This document shows, one piece after another, positions 25,666 to 61,190 of a stretch of DNA of 64,000 bases (within the stretch, counting starts at the first letter, position 1; the number at the start of each line of letters is the position of its first letter). The position numbers were made by a program, and so were the translations under genes. The stretch spans positions 76,769-140,768 of the forward strand of contig CAYRHT010000004.1 in the NCBI GenBank assembly GCA_964424195.1, given 5' to 3'. The notes beneath the pieces are model-generated. The model was not told the origin of the DNA. It did no database searches and was given only the letters and a program-made list of their open reading frames with translations. Source of the stretch: an uncultured Gammaproteobacteria bacterium (lineage in GTDB: Bacteria > Patescibacteriota > Patescibacteriia > UBA1558 > S5-K13).

Positions 25666-28380
25666 TTGTATTTTCATGTTTTGATAATTATTTGTTATAA
25701 TTCAAACATGAAAAAGAATTATTATCATCAAACAGTAAAAGCAGTTATCTCTGAACTTAAATCAAGTACTGAAGGTTTGAGTACTAAAGAGGTGAAGAAG
25801 AAAAAGCTTAAATATGGTTTGAATAAATTAATTGAACAAAAGAAAGTTTCTAAATTCTTTATTTTCCTCAGTCAATTTCATAGCATTCTAATTTATGTTT
25901 TAATCTTAGCTTCAGGGATTTCTTTTTTATTCCATGAATATATTGATGCTGTTGTAATTATGGCAGCTGTTTTTTTAAATGCTTTAATTGGTTACTTTCA
26001 AGAGAATAAAGCTAATAGTGATTTATCTAAATTAAGAACATATATTAAAAGGGAAGTGTTTGTAAGGAGAGATGGAAAGCAATTTTTAATTGATGTTCAG
26101 AATCTAGTTCCAGGGGATATAGTTTTGTTACAAGCTGGTTCTAGAATTTCAGCTGATGCTCGAATTATTGAATCCAATGAATTAAAAGTTGATGAATCAG
26201 TTTTAACTGGAGAATCTATTGCCGTGGACAAGAGTAGTCAGAAAGTTTCTGTGGGAGCTGCTACTGGAGACCGAAGCTCTATGGTCTATATGGGAACTAC
26301 AGTAGTTAAAGGAAATGCTGTAGCTATTGTTACTGCCACAGGAATGAAGACAGAGATAGGTAAAATTGCTGGTTATGTTAGTCAAACTAAAGATGAAGAT
26401 ACTCCTTTACAAATTAGATTAAAAAAATTAGGGAAGTTAATTGGAATAGTAGCAGTTGTTATTTGTTTAATTATTTTTGTTTTAGGAATACTCTTAGGTA
26501 GATCAACTTTAGAAATGTTTTTAATTAGTGTAGCTATTGCTGTGTCTTCTATTCCAGAAGGATTACCAGTAGCAATTACAGTAGTTCTAGCTATTGGAAT
26601 GCAAAGGATATTGAAAGAGAAATCTTTAGTTCGAAGATTAGTGGCTGCTGAAACCTTGGGTTCCACAACTGTAATTTGTACTGACAAGACTGGAACTTTA
26701 ACTCTGGGGAAGATGAAAATCTCTAGTGTTATCTTAGATAATGAAATTGTTGATTTATTCTCTAGAAAGAAAGAAGTTCCTCAGAGAGTAGAAGAGATTC
26801 TGCGAACCGGTTTGTTATGCAATGATGCTTTTTTTGAAAATAATTGTGTTTCAGAAGAATGCTTAAAAGAATGGAAAGTTTCTGGTTCACCTACTGATCA
26901 AGCCTTACTTTTGTCAGGAGTAGAATTGGGATTAGATTTAGACAAAGAACAAAAGAAATATTCTAGAATAGATGAAGTTACTTTTGATTCTTCTAAGAAG
27001 TATATGATGACTTTGCATAAGTATACTAATCTTAAGAGTGATGATCGGTTAATATTATGTAAAGGAGCTCCAGAAGTTGTTTTAGAACATTGTTCCTTTA
27101 TGGAGACAGCTCAAGGAGTTAAGAAACTTACAGAAAAGAAGAGAGAAGAGTTAAAAAAGATTGAGGATAAATTGACAGCTCAAGGTTTAAGATTATTAGC
27201 TGTTGCTCAAAGGAGAATAAATTCTAAACTTTTGAAAGAAAATTTAGATGATAATTTTGAAGCTTTAACTTTCCTTGGTTTTGTAACCTTGCGGGATCCT
27301 TTGAGAGAGACCTCTCGTCAAACTATTAAGACTTGTATGCAAGCTGGTATTCGACCAATAATTATTACTGGAGATCATAAATTAACTGCTCGAGCTATTG
27401 CTAATGAAGTAGGATTGAAAGTAGCAGCTGAAAATATTTTAGTGGGAAAAGATTTGGATAGTTTAAGTGACGATGATTTAAGAGAGAAAGTTAAAAAGGT
27501 TAGTCTTTATGCTCGAGTTAGTCCTCATCACAAGTTAAGAATTATTCAAGCTCTGCAGGAGAATAATGAAGTAGTAGCTATGGCGGGAGATGGTATTAAT
27601 GATGCTCCAGCAATTCAGATGGCTGATATTGGAATAGCTTTAGGTTCAGGAACAGATATTGCTAAAGAGACAGCAGAGATTGTTTTGTTAGAGAATAATT
27701 TCTCAGTAATTGTTCAAGCTATTAAACAAGGAAGAATTATTTTTGATAATCTGAGGAAGATAATTGTCTATCTCTTGTCAGATTCTTTCTCAGGGATGCT
27801 CTTGGTTGTTTCGGCGGTTATTCTGGGAATGCCTTTACCTTTGATTCCAGCTCAGATTTTGTGGATTAATATTGTAAATGACTCTTTGCCGAACTTTGCT
27901 TTAGCTTTTGAAAAGGGGGATAAGGATATTATGAAGCGGAAGCCTTTGAAAAAGAATGAACCAATTTTGAATAAGGAGATGAAGTTTTTAATTTTTGTGA
28001 TTGGAGTTTTTACTGATATTGGTATTTTATCCCTATTCATTTATCTCTTTAAAACAGGTTTAGACATTGAGCATATTCGAACATTTATGTTTGCTGCTTT
28101 AGGAATTGATTCTCTAATTTATGTATATTCTTGTAAGAACCTAAAGAGACAGATTTGGAATTACAAGTTGTTTGATAACAAACTTTTAATTATAGGAACA
28201 TTGATTAGTTTTGCAATGCTAATGGCTGGAATCTATCTTCCTTTCTTTCAAGGAGTCTTAAGAACAGTACCTCTAGGAGCAGAGGGTTGGTTAATTATGG
28301 CGGGAGTAGCTGTATTTGAAGTATTTTCTATTGAACTTGGTAAATGGTTATTTATTCATCGCTGGAGAAAGAAGAAATAG
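25666..28380 (+). CDS. P-type cation-transporting ATPase (P2-type; likely start at Met 25708)
   Basis: ICTDKTGTLT phosphorylation site, PEGLP, MAGDGINDAPA. Confidence 0.9.
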   Translation: MYFHVLIIICYNSNMKKNYYHQTVKAVISELKSSTEGLSTKEVKKKKLKYGLNKLIEQKKVSKFFIFLSQFHSILIYVLILASGISFLFHEYIDAVVIMAAVFLNALIGYFQENKANSDLSKLRTYIKREVFVRRDGKQFLIDVQNLVPGDIVLLQAGSRISADARIIESNELKVDESVLTGESIAVDKSSQKVSVGAATGDRSSMVYMGTTVVKGNAVAIVTATGMKTEIGKIAGYVSQTKDEDTPLQIRLKKLGKLIGIVAVVICLIIFVLGILLGRSTLEMFLISVAIAVSSIPEGLPVAITVVLAIGMQRILKEKSLVRRLVAAETLGSTTVICTDKTGTLTLGKMKISSVILDNEIVDLFSRKKEVPQRVEEILRTGLLCNDAFFENNCVSEECLKEWKVSGSPTDQALLLSGVELGLDLDKEQKKYSRIDEVTFDSSKKYMMTLHKYTNLKSDDRLILCKGAPEVVLEHCSFMETAQGVKKLTEKKREELKKIEDKLTAQGLRLLAVAQRRINSKLLKENLDDNFEALTFLGFVTLRDPLRETSRQTIKTCMQAGIRPIIITGDHKLTARAIANEVGLKVAAENILVGKDLDSLSDDDLREKVKKVSLYARVSPHHKLRIIQALQENNEVVAMAGDGINDAPAIQMADIGIALGSGTDIAKETAEIVLLENNFSVIVQAIKQGRIIFDNLRKIIVYLLSDSFSGMLLVVSAVILGMPLPLIPAQILWINIVNDSLPNFALAFEKGDKDIMKRKPLKKNEPILNKEMKFLIFVIGVFTDIGILSLFIYLFKTGLDIEHIRTFMFAALGIDSLIYVYSCKNLKRQIWNYKLFDNKLLIIGTLISFAMLMAGIYLPFFQGVLRTVPLGAEGWLIMAGVAVFEVFSIELGKWLFIHRWRKKK

Positions 28381-28440
28381 TTTTCTTTGAATATAGTAAA
28401 TCTCGTTGAAAGCGGGGTTTTTTTTGTTTCTTAATATGAG

Positions 28441-28468
28441 TTGACAAATCGTACCAATATGCTATAAT
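28441..28468 (+). promoter_or_regulatory. Consensus sigma70-type promoter
   Basis: TTGACA (28441-28446), 16-nt spacer, TATAAT (28463-28468). Confidence 0.65.
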
Positions 28469-28474
28469 AATCTA

Positions 28475-28642
28475 TTCTTCAAATACCAGAAGAATTGCGT
28501 TGGAAACGTAGAGGATAACCTAAAGGTCACTGGAAGTGACTGGTTATCGCTTGGGATGTGCCGGAGGCACAAGTATATTGTTCTTCAGGAGAAGTTATCA
28601 ATATACTAGCAGTTTAAAAAAACCAAGAAAAAAGGAGGAAAG
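28475..28642 (+). ncRNA. Structured GC-enriched 5' leader / candidate cis-regulatory RNA upstream of 28643 gene
   Basis: Several strong stem-loops (GGAUAACC...GGUUAUC enclosing GUCAC/GUGAC; UGUGCC-GGA-GGCACA; UAUAUUG...CAAUAUA); alternative UUCUUC/GAAGAA pairings; ends at AAGGAGG SD. Confidence 0.4.
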
Positions 28643-29692
28643 ATGAAAATGATCTTTCAAAAAGCAGTACTGAGTTTTTTAGAAGAGAACAAGATGAAGC
28701 AAACATATCTTCTTCTCTTAAGTCTCGCGAGAGGTAAGCATGATATCGAAGAATTACATGGTTTACTTCGAGCAAATTGTCGTTTAGATAGAGAAGAGCT
28801 GTCTCTATTAAAGAGGGCTTGGAATAATCTCTATTCAGGTAATCCTCCCCAAGGAGGAATAAGACCTTCAAATGAAACTTGTCGAGAAATGTTTGAGAAA
28901 TGTTGTCCAGAGAAAGGATTAACAAAACATTATTTTAAGAAATTGATAGAGAATAGTATTTCTAGAGAGAGAAATCATCAGTATGGTAATCTTTATGCTT
29001 CTCATGTACCTGTCTATTTTTTTAAATTAACTTTCTTTCGTGAATTTATCAGTCTGAAATTATTTGATCAAAAATTCAAAGTACAATTTGATATTTTAGA
29101 TGATGAATTAGTGATTCAATTAATAATTTCTCAAGAAAAACTAACAGAGAAAGTAACTCATCAATTAATAAGTGAAATACCAGATTATTTTTGGGATCAT
29201 TACAAAATGACTTCTTCTAATACCTTTCTTAAATTTATATATTCAGTGAAATTATCTGAGCATAATAAACTTAAGAATATTATCCGCAGAGAGAAAGGGG
29301 AGGTAAAAAAAGATATTTATCTTGTCTCTGGTCATTGGGAATTTGTTTACTTCTTGCAAAATGTTTTGAAAGAAATTGGACTACCGATTACTGAAATTTT
29401 ATTTTCTTTTCCCGATACCTATACTTTTGTTAAAAAGTGTATCTTAGAGCTTGGTCCGAAAAATAATATGGAATTACCGGGTGGTAAAATTTTAGAATGC
29501 AAACAATTGGGTGCTGTGGATGGCGAACATGAAATTGATATCTATGCTCCGAAATATGAGATACCAACAAAGAAATTGAAGGAATGCATTCGTTCTTTAG
29601 TAGATGATGGTAAATCAATAGTTATTGCTTCTGGTAATGATGAAGATTATGAGGAATTGAGATGGACATTGTTAGATAAAATATCTGATTAG
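28643..29692 (+). CDS. Hypothetical protein (349 aa)
   Basis: Long ORF behind strong SD and structured leader; no recognised domain. Confidence 0.55.
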   Translation: MKMIFQKAVLSFLEENKMKQTYLLLLSLARGKHDIEELHGLLRANCRLDREELSLLKRAWNNLYSGNPPQGGIRPSNETCREMFEKCCPEKGLTKHYFKKLIENSISRERNHQYGNLYASHVPVYFFKLTFFREFISLKLFDQKFKVQFDILDDELVIQLIISQEKLTEKVTHQLISEIPDYFWDHYKMTSSNTFLKFIYSVKLSEHNKLKNIIRREKGEVKKDIYLVSGHWEFVYFLQNVLKEIGLPITEILFSFPDTYTFVKKCILELGPKNNMELPGGKILECKQLGAVDGEHEIDIYAPKYEIPTKKLKECIRSLVDDGKSIVIASGNDEDYEELRWTLLDKISD

Positions 29693-29713
29693 TGTTCAAA
29701 AGTAATTAATATT

Positions 29714-29748
29714 TGGAACCGATTAAGTTAGTCGGTTCCATTTTTTAT
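29714..29748 (+). terminator. Rho-independent terminator
   Basis: Perfect 8-bp stem ggaaccga/tcggttcc plus T-run. Confidence 0.75.
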
Positions 29749-29823
29749 TTCTTAAATTTTATTGACTAATTTACATTAATGAACTAAGTTAGGAAAAGAA
29801 TAAATAAAAAAATAGGAGGATAT

Positions 29824-30807
29824 ATGAAAACAATTATTGTTGGTGCTGTGGGAAGATGGGGATATGGCATCCTTCATCTAGTAAAGAAATTTTCTAAAAT
29901 TATCGCTGTTGATTTTAGTAAAGATGTTCAAACTTTAATGCAAGATGAAGCAGTTTTGTATTGCGTTCAGAAACTAAGCCAGCTCCAGAGAGCTAATATT
30001 GATTATAATGCGGAATTAATGATTATTGCTATTCCTGGACAATACTTTCGTAAGTTTTTAAAAGATAATATTGATTTTCTAAAAGCCTATTCAGGTATTG
30101 TAGTTTTACAGATGAAGGCTTTGGAAGTTGGAACTGGCAAGACTTTAACTGAGATTTGGGATGAAATTATTGGTACTAATCGTAGAGTTGTCTTAGTCGG
30201 ACCAGTTCATTCTGAGTACCTTGTTGAAGGTAAACCAGTTTCTATGGTTTTGTTAGCTGAAAAAGAAAATCAAGATGTTATTGATCAAGTATTAGAACTG
30301 TACAAACACCCTTCTTTAAAGTTAAGAATTCAGCATGATGTCCAAGGAGGTCAAATAGGTTCATCTTTAAAGAATCCAGTGGGAATAATGGTTGGTGTGG
30401 CAATTGGTTCAGGATATGAATCTTTAGTGGGCGACTTAATTACCCGATCTTTAAAAGAAGTTAGTGAAGTAATTGTTCTGAAAGGTGGTCAGAAAGAAAC
30501 TGCCTATGGACTTTCTCATTTAGGAGATTATGCTGCCACTGCTTTTTGTGATTTAAGTCATAATCGGAAATACGGAGAATTTTTAGCTACTGGCAGTGGT
30601 AAATGGCGAGGAGGTTTAGTAGAGGGTATTAAAACTACTGGAGCTTTTTGGTCTTCGGTGAGTGATATTGAGTCAGTTGAAAAATCAACTACTAGTAATT
30701 CTCGATTTCCATTATTTAGAGCTCTCTATGGAATCTTGTTTGAAGGATATGATATTGAAGATTCTATTAAAGCATTGCGCGCTAGAGAAATAAAAGAAGA
30801 ATTTTAA
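29824..30807 (+). CDS. Divergent NAD(P)H-dependent glycerol-3-phosphate dehydrogenase (GpsA)-like protein
   Basis: Rossmann N-terminus; GPVHSEYL...; LKNPVGIMVGVAIGSGYE...LITRSLKE aligns with GpsA KNVIAIAAG...ALITRGLAE block. Confidence 0.65.
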   Translation: MKTIIVGAVGRWGYGILHLVKKFSKIIAVDFSKDVQTLMQDEAVLYCVQKLSQLQRANIDYNAELMIIAIPGQYFRKFLKDNIDFLKAYSGIVVLQMKALEVGTGKTLTEIWDEIIGTNRRVVLVGPVHSEYLVEGKPVSMVLLAEKENQDVIDQVLELYKHPSLKLRIQHDVQGGQIGSSLKNPVGIMVGVAIGSGYESLVGDLITRSLKEVSEVIVLKGGQKETAYGLSHLGDYAATAFCDLSHNRKYGEFLATGSGKWRGGLVEGIKTTGAFWSSVSDIESVEKSTTSNSRFPLFRALYGILFEGYDIEDSIKALRAREIKEEF

Positions 30808-35525: not shown

Positions 35526-38500
35526 ATGATCAAGAAGAAAAAGAATATATTTAGATTATTAACCCTTTCGATGATAGGTATTTTTGCTTTACCTTTAGTT
35601 TCTTTTGCTCAAATATTAGTTCCGCAGGTTGCTGGTTTAGGAACAGCAGATATTAAAACAGTAGCTGGAACACTTATTCAAGTATTCTTAGGTCTCTTAG
35701 GTTTAATTGCTTTAGTAATTGTTTTAGTCGCTGGTTTTAAATGGATGACTTCTGGTGGTAATGAAGAAAAAGTGTCAGAAGCTAAGAAAATGTTAATAGC
35801 AGGAGTAATTGGTCTAGTAATTATTATGGCTTCTTATGTAATAACTAGTTTTATATTAGATAGTATTCAGGGAGCTATAGATGGTCCAGGAGAAGATGAT
35901 CAAACTTGTTCAGTTGGAGTCTGTTATACTTGTAATCGATGTGATTCTGATGGTGATTTAATCTACGACAATACTTGTCCGGGGTGTAATAATTCAATAG
36001 CTGATTTTAATTTTAGAACAAATTGGTATAGTCCTCAGAGCAATAATGTTTCACTTTGTTCAATGATTCAAATTAAGTTTAATGCTAATCTAGATCAAGA
36101 TTATTTTAATGATAATATTAAGCCTGGTTCAACACCAATTGGAACCAGTCAATCTCAAAGTCTCTTTCATTTTTATGAATGTTTAGAATATGCTGATAAT
36201 CAGTGTGTTAAAGTAAGCGATGATTTAGTAGAAAATAGTTCTCAATTTACAATTAATGAAAATATTTTACAATTTAGATTAGGGGAAGATTATGCGGAAG
36301 ATACTTATTATGTTGTTGATTTACCTTTGAAGGGCATTAAGCAAGAAGGAGAGAGTAAGTATTTAAGTAATAATTTAACCTGGACTTTTAAAACTGGAAA
36401 AGAAACAGATATTAATCCACCAACAGTCATTAATGTTTTTCCAGGACCAGAAGGAGAGGTTTGTTTAAATTCTTATATCGAGATTGAATTTTCTGAGGAT
36501 ATGGATTTGAATTCCTTAAAAGACCTAGAAGCTTTCCGTTTATATGAAAATATACCAGATAATTTAAGTGATATAGAGTTTTTACATAGTGTTCAGAATG
36601 ATAAGTTAATTGTTCATCCAGATCGGAATTATAATTTAAATCATAATTACTTCCCAGTATTAAATGGGGATGTTATTAAAGATACTTGTGGTAATTTACT
36701 AGATGGTGATTTTGATGGAAAATCAGAATATGCTCCAACAGATGATTATCCAACTAATGGTCCTAGTGTTGCTTGGAATTTTAAAACTGGAGAAAATGAA
36801 TATTGTCAGCCTCAGATTACTGGAGTAACTTCTGAAACATATTATGATGATGATTCACCTTTAACTATAACTGGTCATTATTTATCAGGCGGAACTACTT
36901 TGGTTTTTAATGATGATCTTGTAATTGATGAAAACAGTAATCTATGTTTAAACGATTCCTATTGGCCAGATGATTTATGTGCTGCTGGAACCTGGGAAGT
37001 CAATGAAATAAATACCTTTATTCCAGCTGATGGAGGAGATAGTTTTGGAGTAATAGCTGAGAAACCTTCTATTAAAATTCAAACAGATCAGGGTTCAACA
37101 GAGGAAAACTTTGCTTTATTAAGTCCAAGAATAGTTAAAATATCACCAGACAGAGGTGGTAAAGGACAATATATTAGTGTTCTAGGTAATAATTTTGATG
37201 AATTTCAGGATATTAATTTTGCAGAATCTAAAATCTTTTTTAGATCAGAAAGTGATGAATATTTAGAAGCTGATTTACCATGTGATAAAGAAGGATGGAA
37301 AAATAATTCTATTGTTATAACTGCACCAGAAGGACTGGAAGTTAATAGTTCTTACAGAATTCAAATTAAAAAAGTTTTAGTAAATGATGTCGAATACTGG
37401 AGTAATTTAGGAGATTATTATTATAATGAAGAAGATGCTGGTCCAGGTTTATGTTCTATTAACAAAGAGACTATTGAATATGAAGACGAGTTTATTTTAG
37501 ACGGTTTTAAATTAGGAGATTCTAATATAGAGAGAAGAGTTGTTTTAGGAGATGACTATAATTCTACTTCAGCACCAACAATTAATTGGGGAGATCCAGT
37601 AGATGGACAAGATACTAGAGTTGTAGCTCAAGCGCCTAATCTAGCTAGTGCTGATGATATTGGTGTTCGAGTAGCAGTAGAAATAGATGGTGAATTAAGA
37701 TTTAGTAATTATTTAAATGTAGATGTTCTGTCTGATTTTTCAGATCAATTTTATATAAGTTATATTTCTCCAGAAGTAGCTTCAGTAGGTGAGTATATTA
37801 CTATCTATGGTTCAGGATTTGGTAATAGTCAAGGAGATCAAACAGTTAGATTTTATAACAATACATTCACTTGGCCAGAAGGAGATTTTAATTTTCCAGA
37901 AGCTTGCTCTAGTGTTTACTGGCAGGATGATCAGATCATTGTTAAAGTACCAGAAATATTTACTACTCTTCCTTTTGAGTCTCAGATTAAAGTTGTTAAT
38001 GATCAAATTGAAACTGCTGCAGTTGCAGTAGAAATTGATGATGAAGATCCTGCTCCTTCAATTTGTAGTGTTAATCCAGAACTTGGAACTTTGGGAGATG
38101 AATTAGAAATTATTGGGGAATATTTAAATGATGTTGATTGGCTTACCTTTGCTTATGAAACAGATGATGCTTTGGATATTAGACCAAATAGTACTAATAA
38201 AGGTGTAGTTGAAGTTAGTGTTCCAGAAACTAATACTGGTTTAATCTCTGCTCATAATACTAGCGGTTATGGAAATACTTGGAATTTTGAATATCAAAAA
38301 GTAGAAGAAGGTCCAGCAGAAGAATGGGATTTCTATGGTTGGGAGTTTACTACTTGTACTCAATGTGAGAGTCCGCGAGTCAGAGTTCAATCTTGTGATG
38401 CTGAACTTAAGTTTTCACCTTCACCTGCTCCAGGGAATAAATTTGTACCTTTAGGTTCTAATGTTTATATCGAATTTGAATATCAAGATGAAGATCCTGC

Positions 38501-41500
38501 GGAAATGAATATTAGGAGTTATCAGAATAATTTTAATATTTATGAATGTTCTGATGGAGACGCACCTCTAGAGTTAGAATATTGTAATGAGCTTAAATCT
38601 TTTAATTCTGTAGAAGCGAATACTTTTTTAGAAATAAATACTTTAGATTTTCAAGCAGGATATTGGTATCGAGGAGAGTTATTAGACGAGATTAAAGATA
38701 TAGAAGGTTCTAGTTTAAATGAATATTCTTGGTATTTTAGAATAGATCCTTATGGGGCAATATGTGAACCAGATACTTTAAATATTGAACCTAATAATTT
38801 TGTAAAGACCTATGTAGCTAATGATACTCTTACTTATACAGGATTGTTAGTTGATAGTGAAAATTGTTATGTTTGTGCTAGTGATGGTTATGATTATGAT
38901 TGGGAGAGTAGTGATACAAGTTTAGCTACTATTGCTAATAATAATACTTCAGAAACTGATGTAACTTTAAATGATTATTATAATTTTGGTAATTTAGAAA
39001 TTAGAGCTACTTCTACTTTAGATACTTTAGAGTTAGCTGATGATACAAATTTATACATCGTAGCTAATTGTTCTATTTATGAAGACTCAACAACTTGTCA
39101 TGATAGTGGAGAATGTTGTTGGGATGGAGAAACTTGTGGTTCAGATATGAGTGTTTGTGATGAAGATTGTTTAGTCTATACAGAAGTAGATACTTGTGAA
39201 GCTGATACTTGTTGTTGGGCTAACGAAGAATGTCTCTTTGAAAATAATCCAGATTGTGGTTTACCAATAGATTGTTCTATTTATGAAGACTCAAAAACCT
39301 GTCATGAGAGCGGTGAGTGTTGTTGGGATAGTGGTGATATTTACTCAACTACACCTGAAGGAGGTATTTGTAGTGATGATATGACAGCTTGTGATGAAGA
39401 TTGTTTAGTATATAAAGAAGTAGAGACTTGTGAAGCTGATGCTTGTTGTTGGGCTAATGAAGAGTGTTTATTTGAGAATAATTCAGCTTGTGATTTTGAG
39501 ATAGAAGATCCGGAAGTTGATCCAGTTCTAGATGATTTAATGATCTTATCAAATTATCCAAGAAATGAATCTTCTAATATTTGTCCTAATACTTTGATTA
39601 AAGTGGAATTTGATTTACCAGTAGATGCTGATAGCTTAGAGGGTAATATTGAGTTATTAGAGAGTTCAAGTTTTGGTTCTGCGGCAAATATTGATTTTAC
39701 CTATTCTTCTTACAGAAGATATGATGGAACTTCCGTTTTAGAAATAATTCCTCAAGGGATTTTAGATTCAACAACAATATATCAAGTTAATCTATTAGAT
39801 GGTGAAAATGGTATTAAATCTAATGAGGGTGGGGGATTATCTTGTGATAGTTCTTCTAATGGTAGTATTAATAATGGAAGATGTGATTGGAGTTTTACTA
39901 CAGCTGCTAATGTTTGTGATTTAAGTTATGTGAAAATAGTTAATCCAGTAGATAATTATTATGAATTTAATACTCCAATGATTGGAGAAACCTTTATTGC
40001 TGAAGCTAGAACAATTTCTGGAGATCCAATAGTATCAGTAGCTGGAGTCTATGATTGGCAATGGAAGTGGGAATCTTTTGATGAATCATTAGTGACTTTA
40101 GCAGGAGATAATTCTGATTCTGTTTTAGTTATGCCAGCTAATAATAATGGTACAACAATAGTTGAAGTTAATGCTCTTCAAATTCCATCAGAATCAATTT
40201 GTAATGATTATAGTCAGGCAAGTTGTGAAATTAATTCTTGTTGTTGGGTAGATGGTGTTTGTAGTGCAAATCTAGAAACTTGTGAAGAAAATTTATTAAG
40301 TTTTGCTGGTAAATCTGGTTACAAGGGAATAACTTTGAGTGATGAAGTAGAAGTTGAATTATTTATGTGTGAAAATTCTTGGGCATTTGAAGATAGAAAT
40401 TTTAATTTTAAGTTTAAATATTGTCGAGATGGAGGACTACCTTATTTAGCAGATTCTTTAGAAAATGGTTTGATTATAAATGATTTTGAAGCGGTAGAGG
40501 GAGAAGATTCTTTATTAAGAGAATATATATTTAAATATATACCTGATCCTAATCAACAGGCTAATTCAGGAAATTATAATTTAGTAGATGCTAAATCAAA
40601 TAATAGTCTTATGTCAGAAGTAGGAATTTCTGGTTTAGCAGATAATCAATTAGGATTTAAATTCTTGTCTAAAATATTTAGAGGAGCTGTTTCTTATTTT
40701 TCTAATAATAGAGTTTTGGCAGCCACTCCATCAGGTCAAGGAATTTTACCAAACGATATCTTGGGTTTAAGAATATATCAGAACAAGAATCATTATTCTC
40801 CTATTGCTTGGTATTCTTCTACTAATGTAGTTAATTTTAAAGGTTCACCAAATCCTATTTCGATAAATGGTTATCAAGGTCTTAAAGATGGTCGAACCAC
40901 TTATGTTAATGCTGCTAACAAAGTAGATAATAGTATTTATACAAACATTTCCTTAATTTCTCATAATCAAGATGCTATCTTAGAAACTGTAAATATATTT
41001 AATCAGTTAGTAGATAATTGGAAGTTTAATATTAATATGCGTCCTGATTCTAAATCTCAACTAATTGAAGATGTTCAAAGATGGGAAGATTTAAGAAGAA
41101 TGGAAAGTAATTTAGATAATTATGCTGCTCAGAATAAATATTGTGCTTATGTTTCTGATCCTGTGGCTGGAGCTTGTGGTACCTATCCAATTCAATATTA
41201 TCATTTTGATTTAAATGGTAACAAGACTATTGATTCAGCAGAATGCTATAACGTTTCTGCAACAAAATCATGTAGTAGTGACTCTGAATGTCAGAATAAT
41301 GATATGGGTTATGATCAGTGTGTAGGTGTTTATCCAGAGCTTAATGAAGGAACTTATGTTCAAGGAATATCAACTTCTGCTTGGCCTTCTTGGAATTCTA
41401 CTTTGGCTAATCAAATGGGAACCTCTTTACCAATTGATCCTGTAAATGAATTTAATTCTTGTAGTGCTTCTTATGATCAGCAAACTTGTTGGGATGTTGA

Positions 41501-44500
41501 AGGACAGACATTCTCTTGTCCAAGAGATTCACATATTTATTATTATCAAGCAAGTAATAGTAATAATATAGATAAAAGAGCTTTAAGTTTTAATTTATAC
41601 AGTTTATTTAATTTTAATACTAAGAATGATAGTTATTGGAATGGTAGTGGTATAAATAGGACTTTTAATTCAGCAATTAATAGTTTTAATAGTCTTAACT
41701 TAAATAATTATGATGTTTGTAATGATCAAGTTTCAGCTACTTGTGGAAACGGTATTAAGGAATTAGGAGAAGAGTGTGAGTACGGTCAAACATTATCTTT
41801 GTGCAGTAACATTACCCATAGAGGATATTATAATCCTACTGAAGTTGGTTGTCGTTATGATTGTCAGTGGCCAGCTCATATCAATGATCCAGAAGATTGT
41901 TTAAGTTGTGGAGATGGTGTATTTAGTCCAGAATATGGAGAAGTTTGTGAACTTGGTCAATCAGAGATGTTCTGTGAAGACAGTTGGAATCCTCAAGAAG
42001 TTTCTTGTGTTGCTTGTCAGTGGCCAGATTTAGATGAATGTGAATATTGTGGAGATGGTGTTTGTGATATTGATCTTGATAATAATGGTGTTCCTTTTGA
42101 AGGAAGTGATCCAGGAGAAGATAATTTTTGTTATCAAGATTGTGAAGATGGATGTGGTGATGGTATTTGTGATCATGAGTTTGAAGATGCTTATTCTTGC
42201 TATATTGATTGTGGTGATTGTGGTGATGAAATAGTATCTGGCTGGGAGGAATGCGATTTGAATATTGGTGAAGAATGTTTAGCTGGTGATTATGGTGGAC
42301 ATTATCAATGCATAAATAGTGGAGATGATGAATGTACTTGGTCTGATGAATGTACTCCAGATGGTAATTGTGGTGACGGAGTTGTAAATGGTAATGAATT
42401 ATGTGAAATTAATGATATTGGTCCACAGTGTGAGAGAAATACGGATGCTTATTGGGGTAATCGGGAATGTATTGTTACTACTGAAACTCAACCATATAAT
42501 TCAGAAGATTGTTTTTGGCATCTTAATACAGAAGAGGATAATATTTGGTGTCCAACAGATGAATCATGTGGTGACGGAGCTATTAATGGTCTTGAAGAAT
42601 GTGACGATGGAAATAATGCAAATGAAGATGGTTGTGATTCTAATTGTTTATTAGAATGTGGTAATGGTGAGATTGAGCCTTTAGAAGAATGTGACGATGG
42701 AAATAATGTAAATGAAGATGGTTGTGATTCTAATTGTTTGTTTGAATGTGGTAATAGTCAACATGAATATTGGGAAGTTTGTGACGAAGGATCTTATAAT
42801 AACGATGATTGCTCTCCTTATTATCAATTTGAACAATCTGGACATACTTATTGTCAGACTGATTGTTTGTCTGAGTGTACGGTACAAGGTAATTATTGTG
42901 GTGATGGAATTGTTCAATCTTCTTATGAGGACTGTGATACTCCTGGTTTATTAGAAATTTATACAGAGAAGAAGATGGAGATAGTATTTATTTTTGATAT
43001 GACTTCTAGTATGGGTGATGCTGCAACTGAATTATGTGGTGCTTTAGGGTCTGTAGCGTCAGATTTATATGAAAGAAAAGAAAACAATGAAATACAAGAT
43101 TATAAAATTACAGTTATGACATTGGGTGATTTAGAAGATGGAATTTTGAATAATAATCCTAATGATAACATTATTAGGACTGATGGTAATAATCCTTTGG
43201 TGTTTAATAATTTAGTTACTAATTGTGGAGTTTATCAAAATCTTAATAATTCATCTTATCCAGAATATGATAATATATCATATGCGAGTTTTTGGGATAA
43301 TGATAATAATAATTTAAATATTAATTTACCATCAGATGATAGTGAATGGTTTAATAATCTTTGTGGCCCAAATGGTCAAGGAGATACACAAGAGCATTGG
43401 GGATATGCAGTTGAAAAAGTAGCAACAAATTATAATTGGGAAAATGATTATCAAAGAATAATTATACCAGTTAGTGATGAGGCTGCTTATTGTGGAAATG
43501 ATTTTAATGATTATGATGATTATGATGAATCGACTTCTAATGGTAATGCATTGGATGGTTGGAATTTTACGGAAATATTAGTAGATACTGTTAACGCTTG
43601 TAATAATTCTGATCAACAAATTTATTTAAATCCCGTATTAATAAATACTGAACTTGCTGGTTTGTATTATAGCGGTCATCCTAGTTATAATGTAGCACAG
43701 GCAATTGCTGATGATACCGGAGGTGTTTTTAATAATACTACAGATAATTGGGCAGAAAGTATTATAAGTCTTGTTGATCACCTTTTCTGTGATGGTAATG
43801 GTGATGGTTATATGGATTGTTTTTTTAGTGGTGATATTCAAGATGTATGTACTTCCTGGACTTATTCAGCATGGAGTGAGTGTATAAATGGTCAACAAAC
43901 AAGAAGTATTCTTTCTTCTTCTCCAGATGACTGTATTAATGGAAATTCTATTTTAACTCAAAATTGTGACGTGTGCGTTTCCTGGACTTATTCAGCATGG
44001 AGTGAGTGTATAAATGGTCAACAAACAAGAGAGGTTTTAACTTCTTATCCATATAATTGTATTGATGGAGATCCTGTTTTAACTCAAAATTGTGCCGGAG
44101 AGGACGAATGTGCAAATAACTATGTTACAAATGGTAATTTTTCATCTGGTTTTAATTGTTGGAATTCAAGTACAAATTTTGAGAATATGAATACTGATAA
44201 TAATATATTTGAAGTAAATATTATTGGTGGAGGGAGTAATAATATGTATTTTTCATATGATAATTTTCTTTTTATAGAAGGTGAAACATATAAATTATCT
44301 TTTGATTATGATACAACATCTGATCTTGTGCTTGGAGTTAGTAGTGTTTCTGGTTCTTCTATGCCTATTGGTGTAATGAGTTCTTATTGTACTGTTGATA
44401 GTTGTGAGTGGATTTTTACAGCATCTTCTCAGCAATTCCTATTTTCATTCCCACCAAATGTAAATAATCAGACAATGCATTTAGATAATATTGAGATTGT

Positions 44501-44516
44501 CCATATACCCGATTAA
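35526..44516 (+). CDS. Giant (2,996 aa) multi-domain surface protein: pilin-like N-module, Ig-like repeats, Cys-rich repeats, VWA, TSP1-like repeats, CBM-like tail
   Basis: Uninterrupted 8,991-nt ORF; CG[DN]G..EECDDGN.NEDGCDSNC repeats; MIDAS FDMTSSM; W-S-x-W-S-E-C repeats. Confidence 0.75.
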   Translation: MIKKKKNIFRLLTLSMIGIFALPLVSFAQILVPQVAGLGTADIKTVAGTLIQVFLGLLGLIALVIVLVAGFKWMTSGGNEEKVSEAKKMLIAGVIGLVIIMASYVITSFILDSIQGAIDGPGEDDQTCSVGVCYTCNRCDSDGDLIYDNTCPGCNNSIADFNFRTNWYSPQSNNVSLCSMIQIKFNANLDQDYFNDNIKPGSTPIGTSQSQSLFHFYECLEYADNQCVKVSDDLVENSSQFTINENILQFRLGEDYAEDTYYVVDLPLKGIKQEGESKYLSNNLTWTFKTGKETDINPPTVINVFPGPEGEVCLNSYIEIEFSEDMDLNSLKDLEAFRLYENIPDNLSDIEFLHSVQNDKLIVHPDRNYNLNHNYFPVLNGDVIKDTCGNLLDGDFDGKSEYAPTDDYPTNGPSVAWNFKTGENEYCQPQITGVTSETYYDDDSPLTITGHYLSGGTTLVFNDDLVIDENSNLCLNDSYWPDDLCAAGTWEVNEINTFIPADGGDSFGVIAEKPSIKIQTDQGSTEENFALLSPRIVKISPDRGGKGQYISVLGNNFDEFQDINFAESKIFFRSESDEYLEADLPCDKEGWKNNSIVITAPEGLEVNSSYRIQIKKVLVNDVEYWSNLGDYYYNEEDAGPGLCSINKETIEYEDEFILDGFKLGDSNIERRVVLGDDYNSTSAPTINWGDPVDGQDTRVVAQAPNLASADDIGVRVAVEIDGELRFSNYLNVDVLSDFSDQFYISYISPEVASVGEYITIYGSGFGNSQGDQTVRFYNNTFTWPEGDFNFPEACSSVYWQDDQIIVKVPEIFTTLPFESQIKVVNDQIETAAVAVEIDDEDPAPSICSVNPELGTLGDELEIIGEYLNDVDWLTFAYETDDALDIRPNSTNKGVVEVSVPETNTGLISAHNTSGYGNTWNFEYQKVEEGPAEEWDFYGWEFTTCTQCESPRVRVQSCDAELKFSPSPAPGNKFVPLGSNVYIEFEYQDEDPAEMNIRSYQNNFNIYECSDGDAPLELEYCNELKSFNSVEANTFLEINTLDFQAGYWYRGELLDEIKDIEGSSLNEYSWYFRIDPYGAICEPDTLNIEPNNFVKTYVANDTLTYTGLLVDSENCYVCASDGYDYDWESSDTSLATIANNNTSETDVTLNDYYNFGNLEIRATSTLDTLELADDTNLYIVANCSIYEDSTTCHDSGECCWDGETCGSDMSVCDEDCLVYTEVDTCEADTCCWANEECLFENNPDCGLPIDCSIYEDSKTCHESGECCWDSGDIYSTTPEGGICSDDMTACDEDCLVYKEVETCEADACCWANEECLFENNSACDFEIEDPEVDPVLDDLMILSNYPRNESSNICPNTLIKVEFDLPVDADSLEGNIELLESSSFGSAANIDFTYSSYRRYDGTSVLEIIPQGILDSTTIYQVNLLDGENGIKSNEGGGLSCDSSSNGSINNGRCDWSFTTAANVCDLSYVKIVNPVDNYYEFNTPMIGETFIAEARTISGDPIVSVAGVYDWQWKWESFDESLVTLAGDNSDSVLVMPANNNGTTIVEVNALQIPSESICNDYSQASCEINSCCWVDGVCSANLETCEENLLSFAGKSGYKGITLSDEVEVELFMCENSWAFEDRNFNFKFKYCRDGGLPYLADSLENGLIINDFEAVEGEDSLLREYIFKYIPDPNQQANSGNYNLVDAKSNNSLMSEVGISGLADNQLGFKFLSKIFRGAVSYFSNNRVLAATPSGQGILPNDILGLRIYQNKNHYSPIAWYSSTNVVNFKGSPNPISINGYQGLKDGRTTYVNAANKVDNSIYTNISLISHNQDAILETVNIFNQLVDNWKFNINMRPDSKSQLIEDVQRWEDLRRMESNLDNYAAQNKYCAYVSDPVAGACGTYPIQYYHFDLNGNKTIDSAECYNVSATKSCSSDSECQNNDMGYDQCVGVYPELNEGTYVQGISTSAWPSWNSTLANQMGTSLPIDPVNEFNSCSASYDQQTCWDVEGQTFSCPRDSHIYYYQASNSNNIDKRALSFNLYSLFNFNTKNDSYWNGSGINRTFNSAINSFNSLNLNNYDVCNDQVSATCGNGIKELGEECEYGQTLSLCSNITHRGYYNPTEVGCRYDCQWPAHINDPEDCLSCGDGVFSPEYGEVCELGQSEMFCEDSWNPQEVSCVACQWPDLDECEYCGDGVCDIDLDNNGVPFEGSDPGEDNFCYQDCEDGCGDGICDHEFEDAYSCYIDCGDCGDEIVSGWEECDLNIGEECLAGDYGGHYQCINSGDDECTWSDECTPDGNCGDGVVNGNELCEINDIGPQCERNTDAYWGNRECIVTTETQPYNSEDCFWHLNTEEDNIWCPTDESCGDGAINGLEECDDGNNANEDGCDSNCLLECGNGEIEPLEECDDGNNVNEDGCDSNCLFECGNSQHEYWEVCDEGSYNNDDCSPYYQFEQSGHTYCQTDCLSECTVQGNYCGDGIVQSSYEDCDTPGLLEIYTEKKMEIVFIFDMTSSMGDAATELCGALGSVASDLYERKENNEIQDYKITVMTLGDLEDGILNNNPNDNIIRTDGNNPLVFNNLVTNCGVYQNLNNSSYPEYDNISYASFWDNDNNNLNINLPSDDSEWFNNLCGPNGQGDTQEHWGYAVEKVATNYNWENDYQRIIIPVSDEAAYCGNDFNDYDDYDESTSNGNALDGWNFTEILVDTVNACNNSDQQIYLNPVLINTELAGLYYSGHPSYNVAQAIADDTGGVFNNTTDNWAESIISLVDHLFCDGNGDGYMDCFFSGDIQDVCTSWTYSAWSECINGQQTRSILSSSPDDCINGNSILTQNCDVCVSWTYSAWSECINGQQTREVLTSYPYNCIDGDPVLTQNCAGEDECANNYVTNGNFSSGFNCWNSSTNFENMNTDNNIFEVNIIGGGSNNMYFSYDNFLFIEGETYKLSFDYDTTSDLVLGVSSVSGSSMPIGVMSSYCTVDSCEWIFTASSQQFLFSFPPNVNNQTMHLDNIEIVHIPD

Positions 44517-60816: not shown

Positions 60817-61190
60817 GATGAGTTTTTTTGACTCGTCAATCAGCTTAATCGCTTCTAATGTGTCTTTGGACGAGCACTATTTAACTCTCAATCAGCTATA
60901 TGTTGTCATAAGGACAACAAGGCGCTTCTAATGGAAGTTCATTACCTCTTCCTTTTAATAAACAAGTTAATTATTTACTAGAAAGAAGAGATAATGTATT
61001 TAGTTTTTAAAGAACTTCATTAATATTGAGAGTAGTAGAGGAGATTTAAATCTGCCGTTATATAATATATGTGCAGTAATCTCCTTCACTACTCTTAACG
61101 TTAATATTTAATTATAGCATATTATTAGAATAATGTCAAGTATTTATTTATCTAGTTTATTGATATACTGAAATAGTAAAATCTAATTAT

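What the first reader, a model, noticed from the sequence alone, without database searches (positions are those of the whole stretch)
28441..28642. Consensus promoter followed by a 170-nt GC-enriched, multi-hairpin leader with alternative pairings (candidate riboswitch or RNA thermometer/attenuator)
TTGACA-16-TATAAT is one of the best promoters in the window. The transcript 5' region is clearly more GC-rich than its surroundings and folds into at least four strong helices: UUCUUC...GAAGAA; GGAUAACC-[GUCACU-GGAA-GUGAC]-GGUUAUC; UGUGCC-GGA-GGCACA; and UAUAUUG-[CUUC..GAAG]-CAAUAUA. Two UUCUUC / GAAGAA elements can pair in mutually exclusive ways. The leader ends in an A-rich tract and a perfect SD. 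It precedes an unknown 349-aa protein and a GpsA-like dehydrogenase. No known riboswitch class is obviously matched.
Basis: seen in the sequence. Interest (0 to 1): 0.6.

Follow-up and report, generated by a model that had tools for sequence, protein, structure and literature searches.

The report
Reduced member of new leader-RNA family
A strong promoter drives a 170-base folded RNA leader that is a cut-down copy of an undescribed, structurally conserved leader found in front of one uncharacterised protein family in ultra-small (Patescibacteria) and predatory (Micavibrio) bacteria. It probably controls translation of that protein by binding a protein.

Summary
A perfect TTGACA-16(TG)-TATAAT promoter at 28441-28468 is followed by a 168-nt leader with five strong hairpins (fold z = -4.2). 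Nothing in Rfam 15 matches.

The leader belongs with the 349-aa ORF only, not with gpsA. A terminator and gpsA's own promoter lie between them. Close relatives have ATPase next to gpsA with neither leader nor ORF. The 1.3-kb cassette is flanked by a 30-nt direct repeat.

The ORF has about 49 remote homologues (about 265 aa, no Pfam, no PDB fold match). Eight of ten distinct loci examined carry a conserved leader of about 280 nt, with a TTGACA -35 hexamer wherever the upstream region was read. In its 3' domain 14 of 30 pairs are compensatory, and models recover held-out members at E from 5.6e-5 to 2.5e-15.

The window's leader is a reduced, divergent version. Two independent sub-models each place their best window-wide hit in it, adjacent and in order, but weakly (E 0.015 and 0.49).

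All four GC-rich hairpins show GGA in the loop (0 of 1000 shuffles). Homologues use other loops, alike within each genome.

Best reading: a protein-binding translational leader. Rivals are a riboswitch and a CsrA target. The function is inferred, not shown.

The parts
28398..28430 (+). Intrinsic terminator of the upstream P-type ATPase gene; marks the 5' boundary of the cassette
   Evidence: Terminator scan finds a 10-bp stem plus a T run. The ATPase ORF ends at 28380. A homologous terminator is present in relatives L003 and L004.
28420..28449 (+). Left copy of a 30-nt imperfect direct repeat (77% identity; right copy at 29741-29770) that brackets the 1321-nt cassette
   Evidence: the repeat finder family D2. 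Relatives with an empty site carry one copy of the terminator-tail/TTGAC junction.
28441..28468 (+). Sigma-70 promoter: -35 TTGACA, 16-nt spacer with extended-10 TG, -10 TATAAT. Predicted start of transcription is about 28474-28476.
   Evidence: 12 of 12 match and one of two perfect matches in 64 kb. A perfect TTGACA -35 also precedes the homologous leaders in L010, L012, L017, L031, L033 and L034.
28474..28495 (+). H1 = family helix Px: AUUCUUC / GAAGAAU with loop AAAUACCA. The CU-rich 5' strand resembles an anti-SD sequence.
   Evidence: Folds alone with z = -6.1. Model R3 (Px+P2, built from 7 other leaders) has its best hit in the whole window here, 28471-28512, at 16.4 bits and E 0.015. 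Px is 100% paired, with 2 of 7 pairs compensatory, in the family.
28496..28510 (+). H2 = family helix P2: UGCGUU-GGA-AACGUA; GGA loop at 28502-28504
   Evidence: It resembles L034 P2, CACGU-AGUA-ACGUG.
28514..28548 (+). H3 = family P3 (GAUAACC 28514-28520 / GGUUAUC 28542-28548) enclosing P5 (GGUCACU 28525-28531 / AGUGACU 35-41; GGA loop 28532-28534). Family helix P4 is absent.
   Evidence: -15.9 kcal/mol, z = -4.4. R1 and R2 align the inner hairpin to P5. L034 has P3 UGCGAUC/GAUCGCA enclosing P4 and P5, followed by GGAUCGC; the window has GGUUAUCGC.
28550..28554 (+). CUUGG, predicted to pair with CCAAG at 28623-28627. This closes the 3' domain 6 nt upstream of the SD and may replace the family's P9-loop/tail pseudoknot.
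   Evidence: Present in the MFE and centroid structures. The family tails carry GACCA(A/C)(G) at the same place. The equivalence is inferred, not shown.
28554..28571 (+). GGAUG motif followed by H4 = family P7: UGUGCC-GGA-GGCACA; GGA loop at 28563-28565
   Evidence: z = -3.6. GAUG is invariant in the 7-leader alignment immediately 5' of P7. L033 has GGAUGAAUCUGCCUGGGGCAGA, with a G-C to C-G compensatory change relative to the window.
28572..28607 (+). H5 = family P8 (AGUAUAUUG / CAAUAUACU) enclosing P10, CUUC-AGGA-GAAG (28583-28594; AGGA loop 28587-28590). Family helix P9 is absent.
   Evidence: z = -4.1. The 12-mer CUUCAGGAGAAG is identical in L012, L013 and L017 and lies 40-49 nt before the start codon, as it does here. 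The P10 stem is invariant in the family.
28608..28642 (+). A-rich single-stranded tail with CCAAG (28623-28627) and SD GGAGG (28634-28638)
   Evidence: Read directly from the sequence. Unpaired in the fold apart from CCAAG. The local fold has z = -1.28.
28643..29692 (+). 349-aa ORF (alternative start at 28649, giving 347 aa). It belongs to an uncharacterised family of roughly 265-aa proteins and carries a unique C-terminal extension of about 90 aa.
   Evidence: No Pfam, PADLOC or NCBIfam hit. 49 remote homologues at E <= 1e-3. AF2 model built with the alignment has pLDDT > 90 over most of residues 11-250. No PDB fold hit at E < 0.04 and no PDB sequence hit.
29714..29740 (+). Intrinsic terminator that ends the cassette. 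gpsA follows with its own promoter (TTGACT at 29763).
   Evidence: 12-bp stem plus a T run. The gpsA promoter sequence is conserved in L003 and L006, which lack the cassette.

Best explanation
Window 28441-29740 is a self-contained cassette of about 1.3 kb. It consists of a consensus sigma-70 promoter, a 168-nt structured 5' leader, one protein gene and a terminator. It sits between the ATPase terminator and the gpsA promoter.

The leader is a reduced, divergent member of a leader-RNA family that is not in Rfam and that I could not find described. The family's full form is about 280 nt, with helices P1/Px, P2, P3[P4, P5], P6[P7] and P8[P9, P10], plus a candidate pseudoknot next to the SD. This RNA travels with the same uncharacterised protein family in Patescibacteria and Micavibrio.

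Shown here:
- the promoter and the fold;
- the family, its covariation and its tie to the gene;
- the collinear but weak match of the window's leader to the family.

Inferred mechanism. The leader is a protein-binding translational control element.
- Its short GC-rich hairpins (P2, P5, P7, P10) present the same loop motif within a genome. In this genome that motif is GGA, four times.
- I propose these loops are repeated docking sites for an oligomeric RNA-binding protein, most likely the product of the downstream gene itself (autoregulation or RNP assembly).
- Occupancy would then stabilise the closed 3' domain (CUUGG/CCAAG here; the P9-loop/tail pseudoknot overlapping the SD in long forms) and limit ribosome access.
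For: Cassette and promoter.
- Boundaries and promoter.
- Relatives with gpsA at 72% and 62% identity have ATPase directly followed by gpsA.

Family.
- 49 remote homologues of the ORF.
- Eight distinct loci (L010, L012, L013, L017, L030, L031, L033, L034) carry the long leader directly upstream. A TTGACA -35 hexamer precedes it in the six where I read it.
- The leader is more conserved than the gene. P0045 and P0068 are 58% identical in protein, yet their leaders share runs of about 40 identical nt.
- Model R1, built from 4 leaders, finds three held-out leaders at 77, 45.5 and 30 bits (E 2.5e-15, 2.2e-08 and 5.6e-05).
- R2 and R3 find held-out L034 at 63 bits (E 1.8e-11) and 22 bits (E 5.6e-5).
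- Covariation: 95.7% of cells paired and 14 of 30 pairs compensatory; 0 of 500 shuffles reach the observed value on four of five measures (2 of 500 on the fifth); slid controls give 38-58% paired.
- G-U pairs occur on the sense strand, which argues for RNA rather than DNA palindromes.

Window membership.
- The best window-wide hit of R3 is 28471-28512 (E 0.015).
- The best window-wide hit of R2 is 28517-28602.
- The two hits are adjacent, on the same strand and in the right order, upstream of a family gene.
- The window shares CUUCAGGAGAAG, GGAUG followed by a hairpin, and the P3/P5 arrangement with the family.

Protein-binding idea.
- Four hairpin loops carry GGA; 0 of 1000 dinucleotide shuffles reach four.
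- Loops differ between genomes but are alike within each: AGGN in L010, L012, L013 and L017; CAGA/AAGA in L030; CGC-type in L031; CCUGGGG three times in L033; AGUA/AGGA in L034.
- The reduced window form kept exactly these hairpins while losing P4, P6 and P9.
- The SD is free in the unbound fold.
Against: - The window's membership rests on weak scores: R2 gives 12.9 bits (E 0.49) and R3 gives E 0.015, and calibration is rough. A sequence-only HMM misses the leader entirely.
- The promoter plus the first 20 nt or so of H1 also occur in relative L004 in front of an unrelated S8-peptidase gene. Part of H1 may therefore be native to the slot rather than to the family.
- One family gene (L016) has no detectable leader.
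- No RNA-binding domain or known fold was recognised in the protein.
- The within-genome similarity of loops rests on about six independent lineages and was not tested statistically.
- The pseudoknot has only modest per-sequence support (70 to 1860 of 2000 shuffles do as well).
- Conserved junction sequences and an SD-adjacent pseudoknot in the long form are also what a riboswitch looks like.
- No binding or expression data exist.
Confidence: 0.45

Rival explanations
1. Metabolite or ion riboswitch. The multi-helix junction is an aptamer. Ligand binding stabilises or releases the pseudoknot (in the window, CUUGG/CCAAG) next to the SD and so gates translation of a protein whose function relates to the ligand.
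For: The long form has invariant junction sequences (UCAUCC, GGGCU, CCCC..GGAUGA, GGGGCAUC, AUAGUGGUGAUUCC) and a loop-tail pairing that overlaps the SD in L017 and L034. It has mutually exclusive helices P1 and Px, both with covarying pairs. No known class matches, so it would be an orphan class.
Against: The window's version lacks P1-5', P4, P6, P9 and most of the conserved junction strings, yet keeps a perfect promoter and an intact gene. That is hard to reconcile with a conserved ligand pocket. It does not explain why hairpin loops change in concert within a genome. The regulated gene has no metabolic annotation.
Confidence: 0.2
2. CsrA/Rsm-type target. In this genome the four GGA hairpin loops plus the GGA in the SD are binding sites for the global regulator CsrA, which represses translation by bridging a leader hairpin and the SD.
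For: GGA sits in 4 of 5 hairpin loops (0 of 1000 shuffles reach four), and there are 8 GGA in 172 nt (7 of 1000 shuffles reach eight). The SD is AAGGAGG. C-AGGA-G hairpins are, from my own knowledge of CsrA/RsmE sites, the classic high-affinity geometry. csrA is reported among highly expressed genes of ultra-small groundwater prokaryotes (PMC9938205).
Against: GGA is not conserved in the homologous hairpins of L030 (CAGA/AAGA), L031 (CGC, UCGAG) or L033 (UGG), and only partly in L034 (AGUA twice). No csrA was found in the 64-kb window or the fetched loci, though this covers only about 7% of the genome. CsrA targets do not normally keep stems and junctions conserved across phyla.
Confidence: 0.12
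3. Non-regulatory 5' UTR. The 5'-terminal hairpin and compact stems merely stabilise a highly expressed mRNA, or they are decaying remnants of the long-form leader with no present function.
For: The window form has lost several family elements, and covariance-model scores are weak. A 5'-terminal hairpin at the same promoter also precedes an unrelated gene in L004. The SD is unpaired, so expression would be constitutive.
Against: The retained hairpins are perfect (no mismatches), with a uniform GGA loop motif that no shuffle reproduces. A decaying remnant would accumulate mismatches. The promoter and the ORF are both intact.
Confidence: 0.12
4. RNA thermometer or transcription attenuator.
For: There are many hairpins, and duplicated UUCUUC/GAAG elements could in principle re-pair with each other or with the SD (GAGGAA).
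Against: The SD and start codon are unpaired in the MFE and centroid structures, and the local fold is not better than chance. There is no terminator with a U tract in the leader. There is no Rfam thermometer or leader match.
Confidence: 0.04
5. DNA-level element: operator palindromes or a recombination site acting on double-stranded DNA downstream of the promoter.
For: All the hairpins are perfect inverted repeats, and the antisense strand folds as well as the sense strand. The cassette is flanked by direct repeats.
Against: Family helices contain G-U pairs, which would be C-A mismatches on the other strand, and they change by compensatory substitution with variable sequence. That is unlike operators, which conserve sequence. 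Five different palindromes do not suggest one DNA-binding protein.
Confidence: 0.04

Closest known systems
Autoregulatory protein-binding mRNA leaders (ribosomal-protein leaders; phage MS2 coat-protein operator hairpin; T4 gene 32 and S15 pseudoknots)
   Same: A structured 5' UTR directly upstream of the regulated gene. Hairpin loops or a pseudoknot sit beside the SD as the control point. The RNA is conserved together with the gene.
   Different: No sequence or Rfam relationship. Here there are three or four repeated hairpins with genome-specific loops inside a junction RNA of about 280 nt. The protein has no known RNA-binding fold. Binding is untested.
CsrA/RsmA-bound leaders and CsrB/RsmZ-type sponge RNAs
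   Same: Multiple short hairpins present GGA in the loop, and there is a GGA in the SD.
   Different: GGA is not conserved in orthologous hairpins of other family members. Stems and junctions are conserved across phyla. It is tied to one gene family rather than to a regulon. csrA has not been shown in this genome.
Orphan riboswitch candidates with SD-sequestering pseudoknots (for example the architectural logic of SAM-II or preQ1)
   Same: A conserved multi-helix leader, alternative helices (P1 versus Px), and a loop-tail pairing that reaches the SD in long forms.
   Different: It matches no Rfam class. It is much larger. The window variant lacks the pseudoknot hairpin. The regulated gene has unknown function, so no ligand can be guessed.
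Type III toxin-antitoxin loci (ToxIN-like: an RNA gene immediately upstream of its protein partner)
   Same: A small, horizontally scattered two-part RNA-plus-protein cassette with its own strong promoter. Repeated RNA units possibly bind the cognate protein.
   Different: No tandem direct repeats. No terminator between the RNA and the ORF. No PADLOC hit. The protein is unlike ToxN or AbiE.

Membership tests
Long-form leader RNA family defined here (models R1-R3; 8 loci) | Lies directly upstream of, and on the same strand as, a member of the ~265-aa protein family, behind a TTGACA promoter | tested here: met
   The window ORF hits 49 family proteins. The promoter scores 12 of 12. The same layout is seen in L010, L012, L013, L017, L030, L031, L033 and L034.
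Long-form leader RNA family defined here (models R1-R3; 8 loci) | Significant covariance-model match to the 5' module (Px+P2) | tested here: inconclusive
   R3 gives 16.4 bits and E 0.015 over 64 kb on both strands. It is the top hit, at 28471-28512. True members score 54-66 bits and held-out L034 scores 22 bits. Calibration is rough.
Long-form leader RNA family defined here (models R1-R3; 8 loci) | Significant covariance-model match to the 3' domain (P5-P6/P7-P8/P9/P10) | tested here: not met
   R2 gives 12.9 bits and E 0.49. It is the top hit in the window but not significant. Held-out members score 30-77 bits.
Long-form leader RNA family defined here (models R1-R3; 8 loci) | P10 hairpin CUUC-ARGA-GAAG nested in P8, 40-50 nt before the start codon | tested here: met
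   In the window P10 is at 28583-28594, inside 28572-28607, 49 nt before the ATG. It is identical to L012, L013 and L017.
Long-form leader RNA family defined here (models R1-R3; 8 loci) | P1 5' strand, P4, P6 (CCCC/GGGG), and P9 with a GGUC loop pairing to GACC in the tail | tested here: not met
   All are absent from the window leader. They are present in the 8 long forms. The window leader is therefore filed as a reduced relative, not a canonical member.
CsrA/Rsm binding-site cluster | GGA in the loops of short hairpins plus a GGA overlapping the SD | tested here: met
   Four loops carry GGA and the SD is AAGGAGG. 0 of 1000 shuffles give four loops.
CsrA/Rsm binding-site cluster | GGA conserved in orthologous sites of related leaders | tested here: not met
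   L030 has CAGA/AAGA, L031 has CGC/UCGAG/ACGCU, L033 has UGG three times, and L034 has AGUA twice.
CsrA/Rsm binding-site cluster | csrA encoded in the same genome | not testable with these tools
   tblastn with three CsrA/RsmA proteins finds nothing in the 64-kb window or the fetched loci.
Any Rfam 15 family (riboswitches, T-box, leaders, thermometers, sRNAs) | Covariance-model score at or above the gathering threshold | tested here: not met
   The only gathering-level hit in the window is a tRNA. At E <= 10 there are only chance-level hits in 28300-28800. There is nothing on the long-form loci.
RNA thermometer (ROSE/fourU type) | SD or start codon sequestered in a meltable hairpin | tested here: not met
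   The SD is unpaired in the MFE and centroid structures. The fold of 28608-28660 has z = -1.28.
Terminator-antiterminator attenuator | Intrinsic terminator (GC stem plus U tract) in the leader | tested here: not met
   The only terminator-like call is H4, followed by AGUAUAUUGU. Homologous P7 hairpins are followed by GGGG.
Type III toxin-antitoxin RNA | Tandem direct repeats upstream of the toxin gene | tested here: not met
   Tandem Repeats Finder finds none in 28350-28700. There is no PADLOC hit for the ORF.

The most novel reading that the evidence does not exclude
The leader and the protein form a co-evolving two-part RNA-protein module. This would be a mobile promoter-RNA-gene cassette that spreads between episymbiotic and predatory bacteria (Patescibacteria, Micavibrio). 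Three or four hairpin loops would act as genome-specific address labels read by the cognate protein, which has a new fold. The result would be either a stable RNP or a self-limiting (type-III-TA-like or autoregulatory) system of a kind not yet described.
Probability: 0.25. Interest if true: 0.8.

Novelty: new variant of a known kind. Interest (0 to 1): 0.6.

Why it matters
Patescibacteria make up a large share of bacterial diversity, yet almost nothing is known about their RNA-based regulation. This work defines a large structured RNA family of about 280 nt. The family is well supported by covariation, absent from Rfam 15, and locked to an uncharacterised protein family with no recognisable fold. 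It is shared with Micavibrio, another bacterium that lives on other cells.

That gives a concrete and testable RNA-protein pair. The window's reduced version acts as a natural deletion experiment pointing to the hairpins as the essential part. If the loops are read by the cognate protein, this would be a compact system for studying how RNA-protein specificity co-evolves. If the RNA is a riboswitch, it would be a new orphan class that could reveal the function of the protein family.

Tried and rejected
- Synteny route. gpsA-anchored relatives were meant to supply homologous leaders. Instead they showed that the cassette is absent (L003, L006) or replaced by an S8 peptidase (L004/L005).
- The genome-contig scan with GpsA found nothing.
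- The word-indexed protein search found only self and three others.
- A hand-made back-translated motif scan of metagenomes gave 15 stretches, of which only 2 were real family genes.
- Viral contigs and plasmids gave no RNA or protein hits.
- CsrA as the family-wide factor was my working idea after seeing the GGA loops. I rejected it for the family once the L030, L031 and L033 loops were read.
- A sequence-only nhmmer profile does not detect the window leader. Its top hit (39326-39365) lies inside the 2996-aa ORF and is chance.
- A uORF starting at the invariant GAUG: the ORFs would be 17, 24 and 35 codons in the window, L010 and L033. They have no SD, and compensatory stem changes would scramble the peptide. 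I judged this unlikely (reading).
- The single-sequence AF2 model was useless (pLDDT 41).
- Strain comparison gave nothing, because L001 and L002 are 100% identical to the window.
Full report
**1. The observation**

- TTGACA (28441-28446), a 16-nt spacer with TG, and TATAAT (28463-28468) score 12 of 12.
- A pattern search finds only two perfect TTGACA-N16-18-TATAAT sites in the 64-kb window, against 0.18 expected.
- G+C rises to 0.38-0.45 over 28450-28599, against about 0.26-0.32 around it.
- The 175-nt transcript model folds at -50.4 kcal/mol against -32.7 +/- 4.3 for shuffles (z = -4.16).
- Each of five hairpins folds on its own with z from -2.7 to -6.1.
- The antisense strand folds equally well (z = -4.81). 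Energy alone therefore cannot assign the strand.
- Rfam 15 gives nothing at gathering thresholds and only chance-level hits at E <= 10.

**2. What the leader belongs to**

The upstream ORF is a P-type ATPase that ends at 28380 and has its own terminator. The ORF after the leader (28643-29692, 349 aa) has no Pfam, PADLOC or NCBIfam match. It is followed by a 12-bp terminator at 29714-29740. gpsA then starts at 29824 behind its own promoter.

The genome is an approximately 0.95-Mb, 30% G+C organism carrying a gene with the T4SS_pilin domain (PF18895). I take it to be Patescibacteria-like; this is an inference from genome size and gene content, not a tested assignment. The same sequence is seen in many samples.

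Relatives found through GpsA give the following picture.
- At 72% and 62% identity, ATPase is followed directly by gpsA, with the same gpsA promoter, no leader and no ORF.
- At 57% identity, a 1325-aa S8 peptidase fills the slot. It sits behind a homologous promoter and the first 20 nt or so of hairpin H1, with an otherwise short leader.
- A 30-nt, 77% identical direct repeat (28420-28449 and 29741-29770) brackets the 1321-nt unit.

The leader therefore serves the 349-aa ORF alone, inside an inserted cassette. The link to glycerol-3-phosphate falls away.

**3. The protein family**

The word-indexed search found only the protein itself. An exhaustive phmmer search found 49 proteins at E <= 1e-3. 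Most are about 265 aa and share motifs such as LHxLLPxNC(Q/R)L and LTExxTH.

Where sources name an organism, it is:
- 'Patescibacteria group bacterium' three times;
- a Desulfobulbaceae MAG, on a short contig;
- a Micavibrio sp. MAG.

With the alignment, AlphaFold2 models most of residues 11-250 with pLDDT above 90: a helical N-terminal domain followed by an alpha/beta domain. Foldseek against the PDB gives nothing better than E = 0.04 (YbjN, TM 0.15), and a profile search of PDB sequences gives nothing. The last 90 residues or so are unique to the window protein.

**4. A conserved leader RNA in front of that family**

Every family locus I could fetch with upstream DNA, except one, has a 270-290-nt untranslated region. 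In the six loci where I read the promoter region (L010, L012, L017, L031, L033, L034) it lies behind a perfect TTGACA -35 hexamer. The loci are:

| Locus | Family protein | Source |
|---|---|---|
| L010 | P0068 | Micavibrio sp. MAG |
| L012 | P0045 | JGI metagenome contig (organism not named) |
| L013 | P0069 | Logan assembly contig (organism not named) |
| L017 | P0022 | metagenome contig (organism not named) |
| L030 | P0026 | Patescibacteria MAG |
| L031 | P0025 | Patescibacteria MAG |
| L033 | P0021 | ENA metagenome contig (organism not named) |
| L034 | P0024 | Logan assembly contig (organism not named) |

These leaders are more conserved than the proteins. P0045 and P0068 are 58% identical, yet their leaders share runs of about 40 identical nucleotides.

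Their common architecture is:
- P1, a long hairpin whose CU-rich 3' strand can instead form Px with a purine-rich strand across an invariant UCAUCC loop;
- P2;
- P3 enclosing P4 and P5;
- P6 (CCCC/GGGG) enclosing GGAUGA and P7;
- P8 enclosing P9 and P10 (CUUC-ARGA-GAAG);
- a tail with GACC, then the SD.

Evidence that this is a real RNA family:
- A covariance model from four leaders recovered three held-out ones at 77, 45.5 and 30 bits.
- Later models recovered held-out L034 at 63 and 22 bits.
- On the model-based alignment of seven, 95.7% of cells pair and 14 of 30 pairs show compensatory change. On four of the five measures no shuffle of 500 reaches the observed value (2 of 500 on the fifth). 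Slid controls give 38-58% paired.
- Px is 100% paired, with two compensatory pairs.
- G-U pairs on the sense strand argue for RNA rather than DNA.
- The P9 loop (…GGUC…) is complementary to the tail (…GACC…) in all eight leaders. In L017 and L034 this extends to 8 bp and runs into the SD. Per-sequence significance is modest, however.
- Rfam has no match to any of these loci.
- Three literature searches turned up no description.

One GC-rich family locus (L016) shows no such leader.

**5. Is the window's leader a member?**

By score, only weakly.
- The 3' domain model's best hit in the whole window, on both strands, is 28517-28602, at 12.9 bits and E 0.49 (R1 behaves similarly).
- The 5' module (Px+P2) has its best hit at 28471-28512, at 16.4 bits and E 0.015.
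- A sequence-only profile misses the leader.

Yet the two independent sub-models place their top hits side by side, in the right order and on the right strand, in a 170-nt stretch of a 128-kb search space, directly upstream of a family gene. The anatomy is also collinear:

| Window element | Family element | Comparison |
|---|---|---|
| H1, AUUCUUC-AAAUACCA-GAAGAAU | Px | L017 has CUUCUUC-AUAUCAUCCA-GAAGAAG |
| H2 | P2 | L034 has CACGU-AGUA-ACGUG |
| H3 outer helix | P3 | L034 has P3 enclosing P4 and P5 |
| H3 inner hairpin | P5 | The following UGGUUAUCGC matches L034 GUGGAUCGC |
| GGAUG + H4 | GGAUGA + P7 | L033 has UCUGCC-UGG-GGCAGA, with a compensatory G-C to C-G change |
| H5 | P8 enclosing P10 | The identical 12-mer CUUCAGGAGAAG lies 49 nt before the ATG (40-47 nt in the others) |

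Missing from the window are the P1 5' strand (transcription starts at Px), P4, P6, and P9 with its pseudoknot. A CUUGG/CCAAG pairing (28550-28554 with 28623-28627) closes the 3' domain instead.

I therefore file the window leader as a reduced, divergent relative and not as a canonical member. One caveat applies: the promoter and the start of H1 also occur in L004 before an unrelated gene.

**6. Mechanism**

In 1000 dinucleotide shuffles, none gave four such loops. That is the signature of CsrA sites, and csrA is reported as highly expressed in ultra-small groundwater prokaryotes (PMC9938205).

The orthologous loops in other genomes, however, are not GGA. Within each genome the loops of P2, P5 and P7 (and often P10) resemble one another:

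| Locus | Loop motifs |
|---|---|
| L010, L012, L013, L017 | AGGN |
| L030 | CAGA / AAGA |
| L031 | CGC-type |
| L033 | CCUGGGG, three times |
| L034 | AGUA / AGGA |

A universal factor with fixed specificity does not fit that pattern. A partner that diverges with the cassette does fit, and the only such partner in view is the rapidly diverging downstream protein. The window's natural 'minimal' version kept exactly these hairpins while shedding junction elements.

My best explanation is therefore a protein-binding translational leader. Repeated hairpins would recruit an oligomeric protein, probably the gene's own product. Binding would stabilise the closed 3' domain or pseudoknot beside the SD, which is otherwise free. 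Every step of this mechanism is inference.

The rivals are:
- An orphan riboswitch, suggested by conserved junctions, the P1/Px alternative helices and an SD-adjacent pseudoknot. It is weakened by the loss of those elements in the window.
- A lineage-specific CsrA target.
- A passive stabilising or decaying UTR.
- Thermometer, attenuator, DNA-operator, uORF and type III antitoxin readings. These were tested or considered and found poor.

**7. Novelty and verdict**

The kind of element, a structured cis-acting mRNA leader, is well known. This family is not in Rfam 15 and is tied to an unannotated protein family with no fold match. It appears restricted to Patescibacteria and Micavibrio-like bacteria, and it travels as a promoter-RNA-gene cassette.

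Its interpretation is partly supported: it is a structured regulatory leader of an unknown class, but not a thermometer or attenuator, and it is not linked to gpsA.

- Confidence that the leader is a functional RNA related to the family: about 0.8.
- Confidence in the protein-binding mechanism: about 0.4-0.45.

Noticed in passing
window 61111-61139 (- strand) and downstream to about 60816: This is the only other perfect TTGACA-N17-TATAAT promoter in the window, and it shares the ATATGCTATAAT extended -10 with the leader's promoter. It is followed on the minus strand by about 295 nt without an ORF before a 187-aa gene (60816-60253). That stretch includes a long hairpin (GAGUAGUGAAGGAGAUU...AAUCUCCUCUACUACUC) and a repeated CAUUAGAAGCG. 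It may be a second structured leader or an sRNA. There is no Rfam hit at gathering threshold.
   Followed up: partly
window 28420-28449 and 29741-29770: A 30-nt direct repeat (77% identity) made of a terminator T-tail, TTTCTTAA and a TTGAC -35. It brackets the 1321-nt promoter-leader-ORF-terminator unit and looks like the scar of an insertion or duplication at the ATPase/gpsA junction.
   Followed up: partly
L004/L005 1737-1906 (relative with GpsA at 57% identity): The same slot between ATPase and gpsA holds a 1325-aa S8-peptidase/beta-helix gene. It sits behind a promoter and first hairpin homologous to the window's 28441-28487. Even the ORF start, ATGAAAATGA, is the same, although the proteins are unrelated. 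The slot is a variable-cargo site with a conserved promoter.
   Followed up: partly
L031 about 2535-2690: Immediately upstream of the long-form leader's promoter there is another promoter-like site (TTGACATATTGG...). It is followed by a GC-rich structured unit of about 130 nt that ends in a GGGUGG...CCACCCUCC-U7 terminator, with no ORF. It is sRNA-like and has no Rfam hit.
   Followed up: no
L034 about 2275-2550: Upstream of the long-form leader there is a second TTGACA promoter. It drives a structured stretch of about 250 nt with CCCCCCUGGGGGG and CCCCGGGG palindromes and a terminator. Its function is unknown.
   Followed up: no
window 35526-44516 (+): A 2996-aa ORF with Cys-rich repeats (CCW...C motifs) and T4SS_pilin/Big_5 domain hits in the homologous locus. 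It follows a 535-aa T4SS_pilin protein and is a giant surface-type protein typical of episymbiotic Patescibacteria.
   Followed up: no
L016 890-1765: A GC-rich member of the protein family has no detectable leader RNA (no R1 or R3 hit), and its upstream DNA looks like coding sequence. Either the leader is dispensable in some lineages or it has diverged beyond detection.
   Followed up: partly
P0020 (324 aa, Desulfobulbaceae-labelled MAG contig): Its N-terminal extension of about 65 aa, lying before the conserved MEPLQF start, looks like a mis-called start that translates through a leader region. This suggests the leader is present there too. The taxonomic label rests on a contig shorter than 3 kb.
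   Followed up: no
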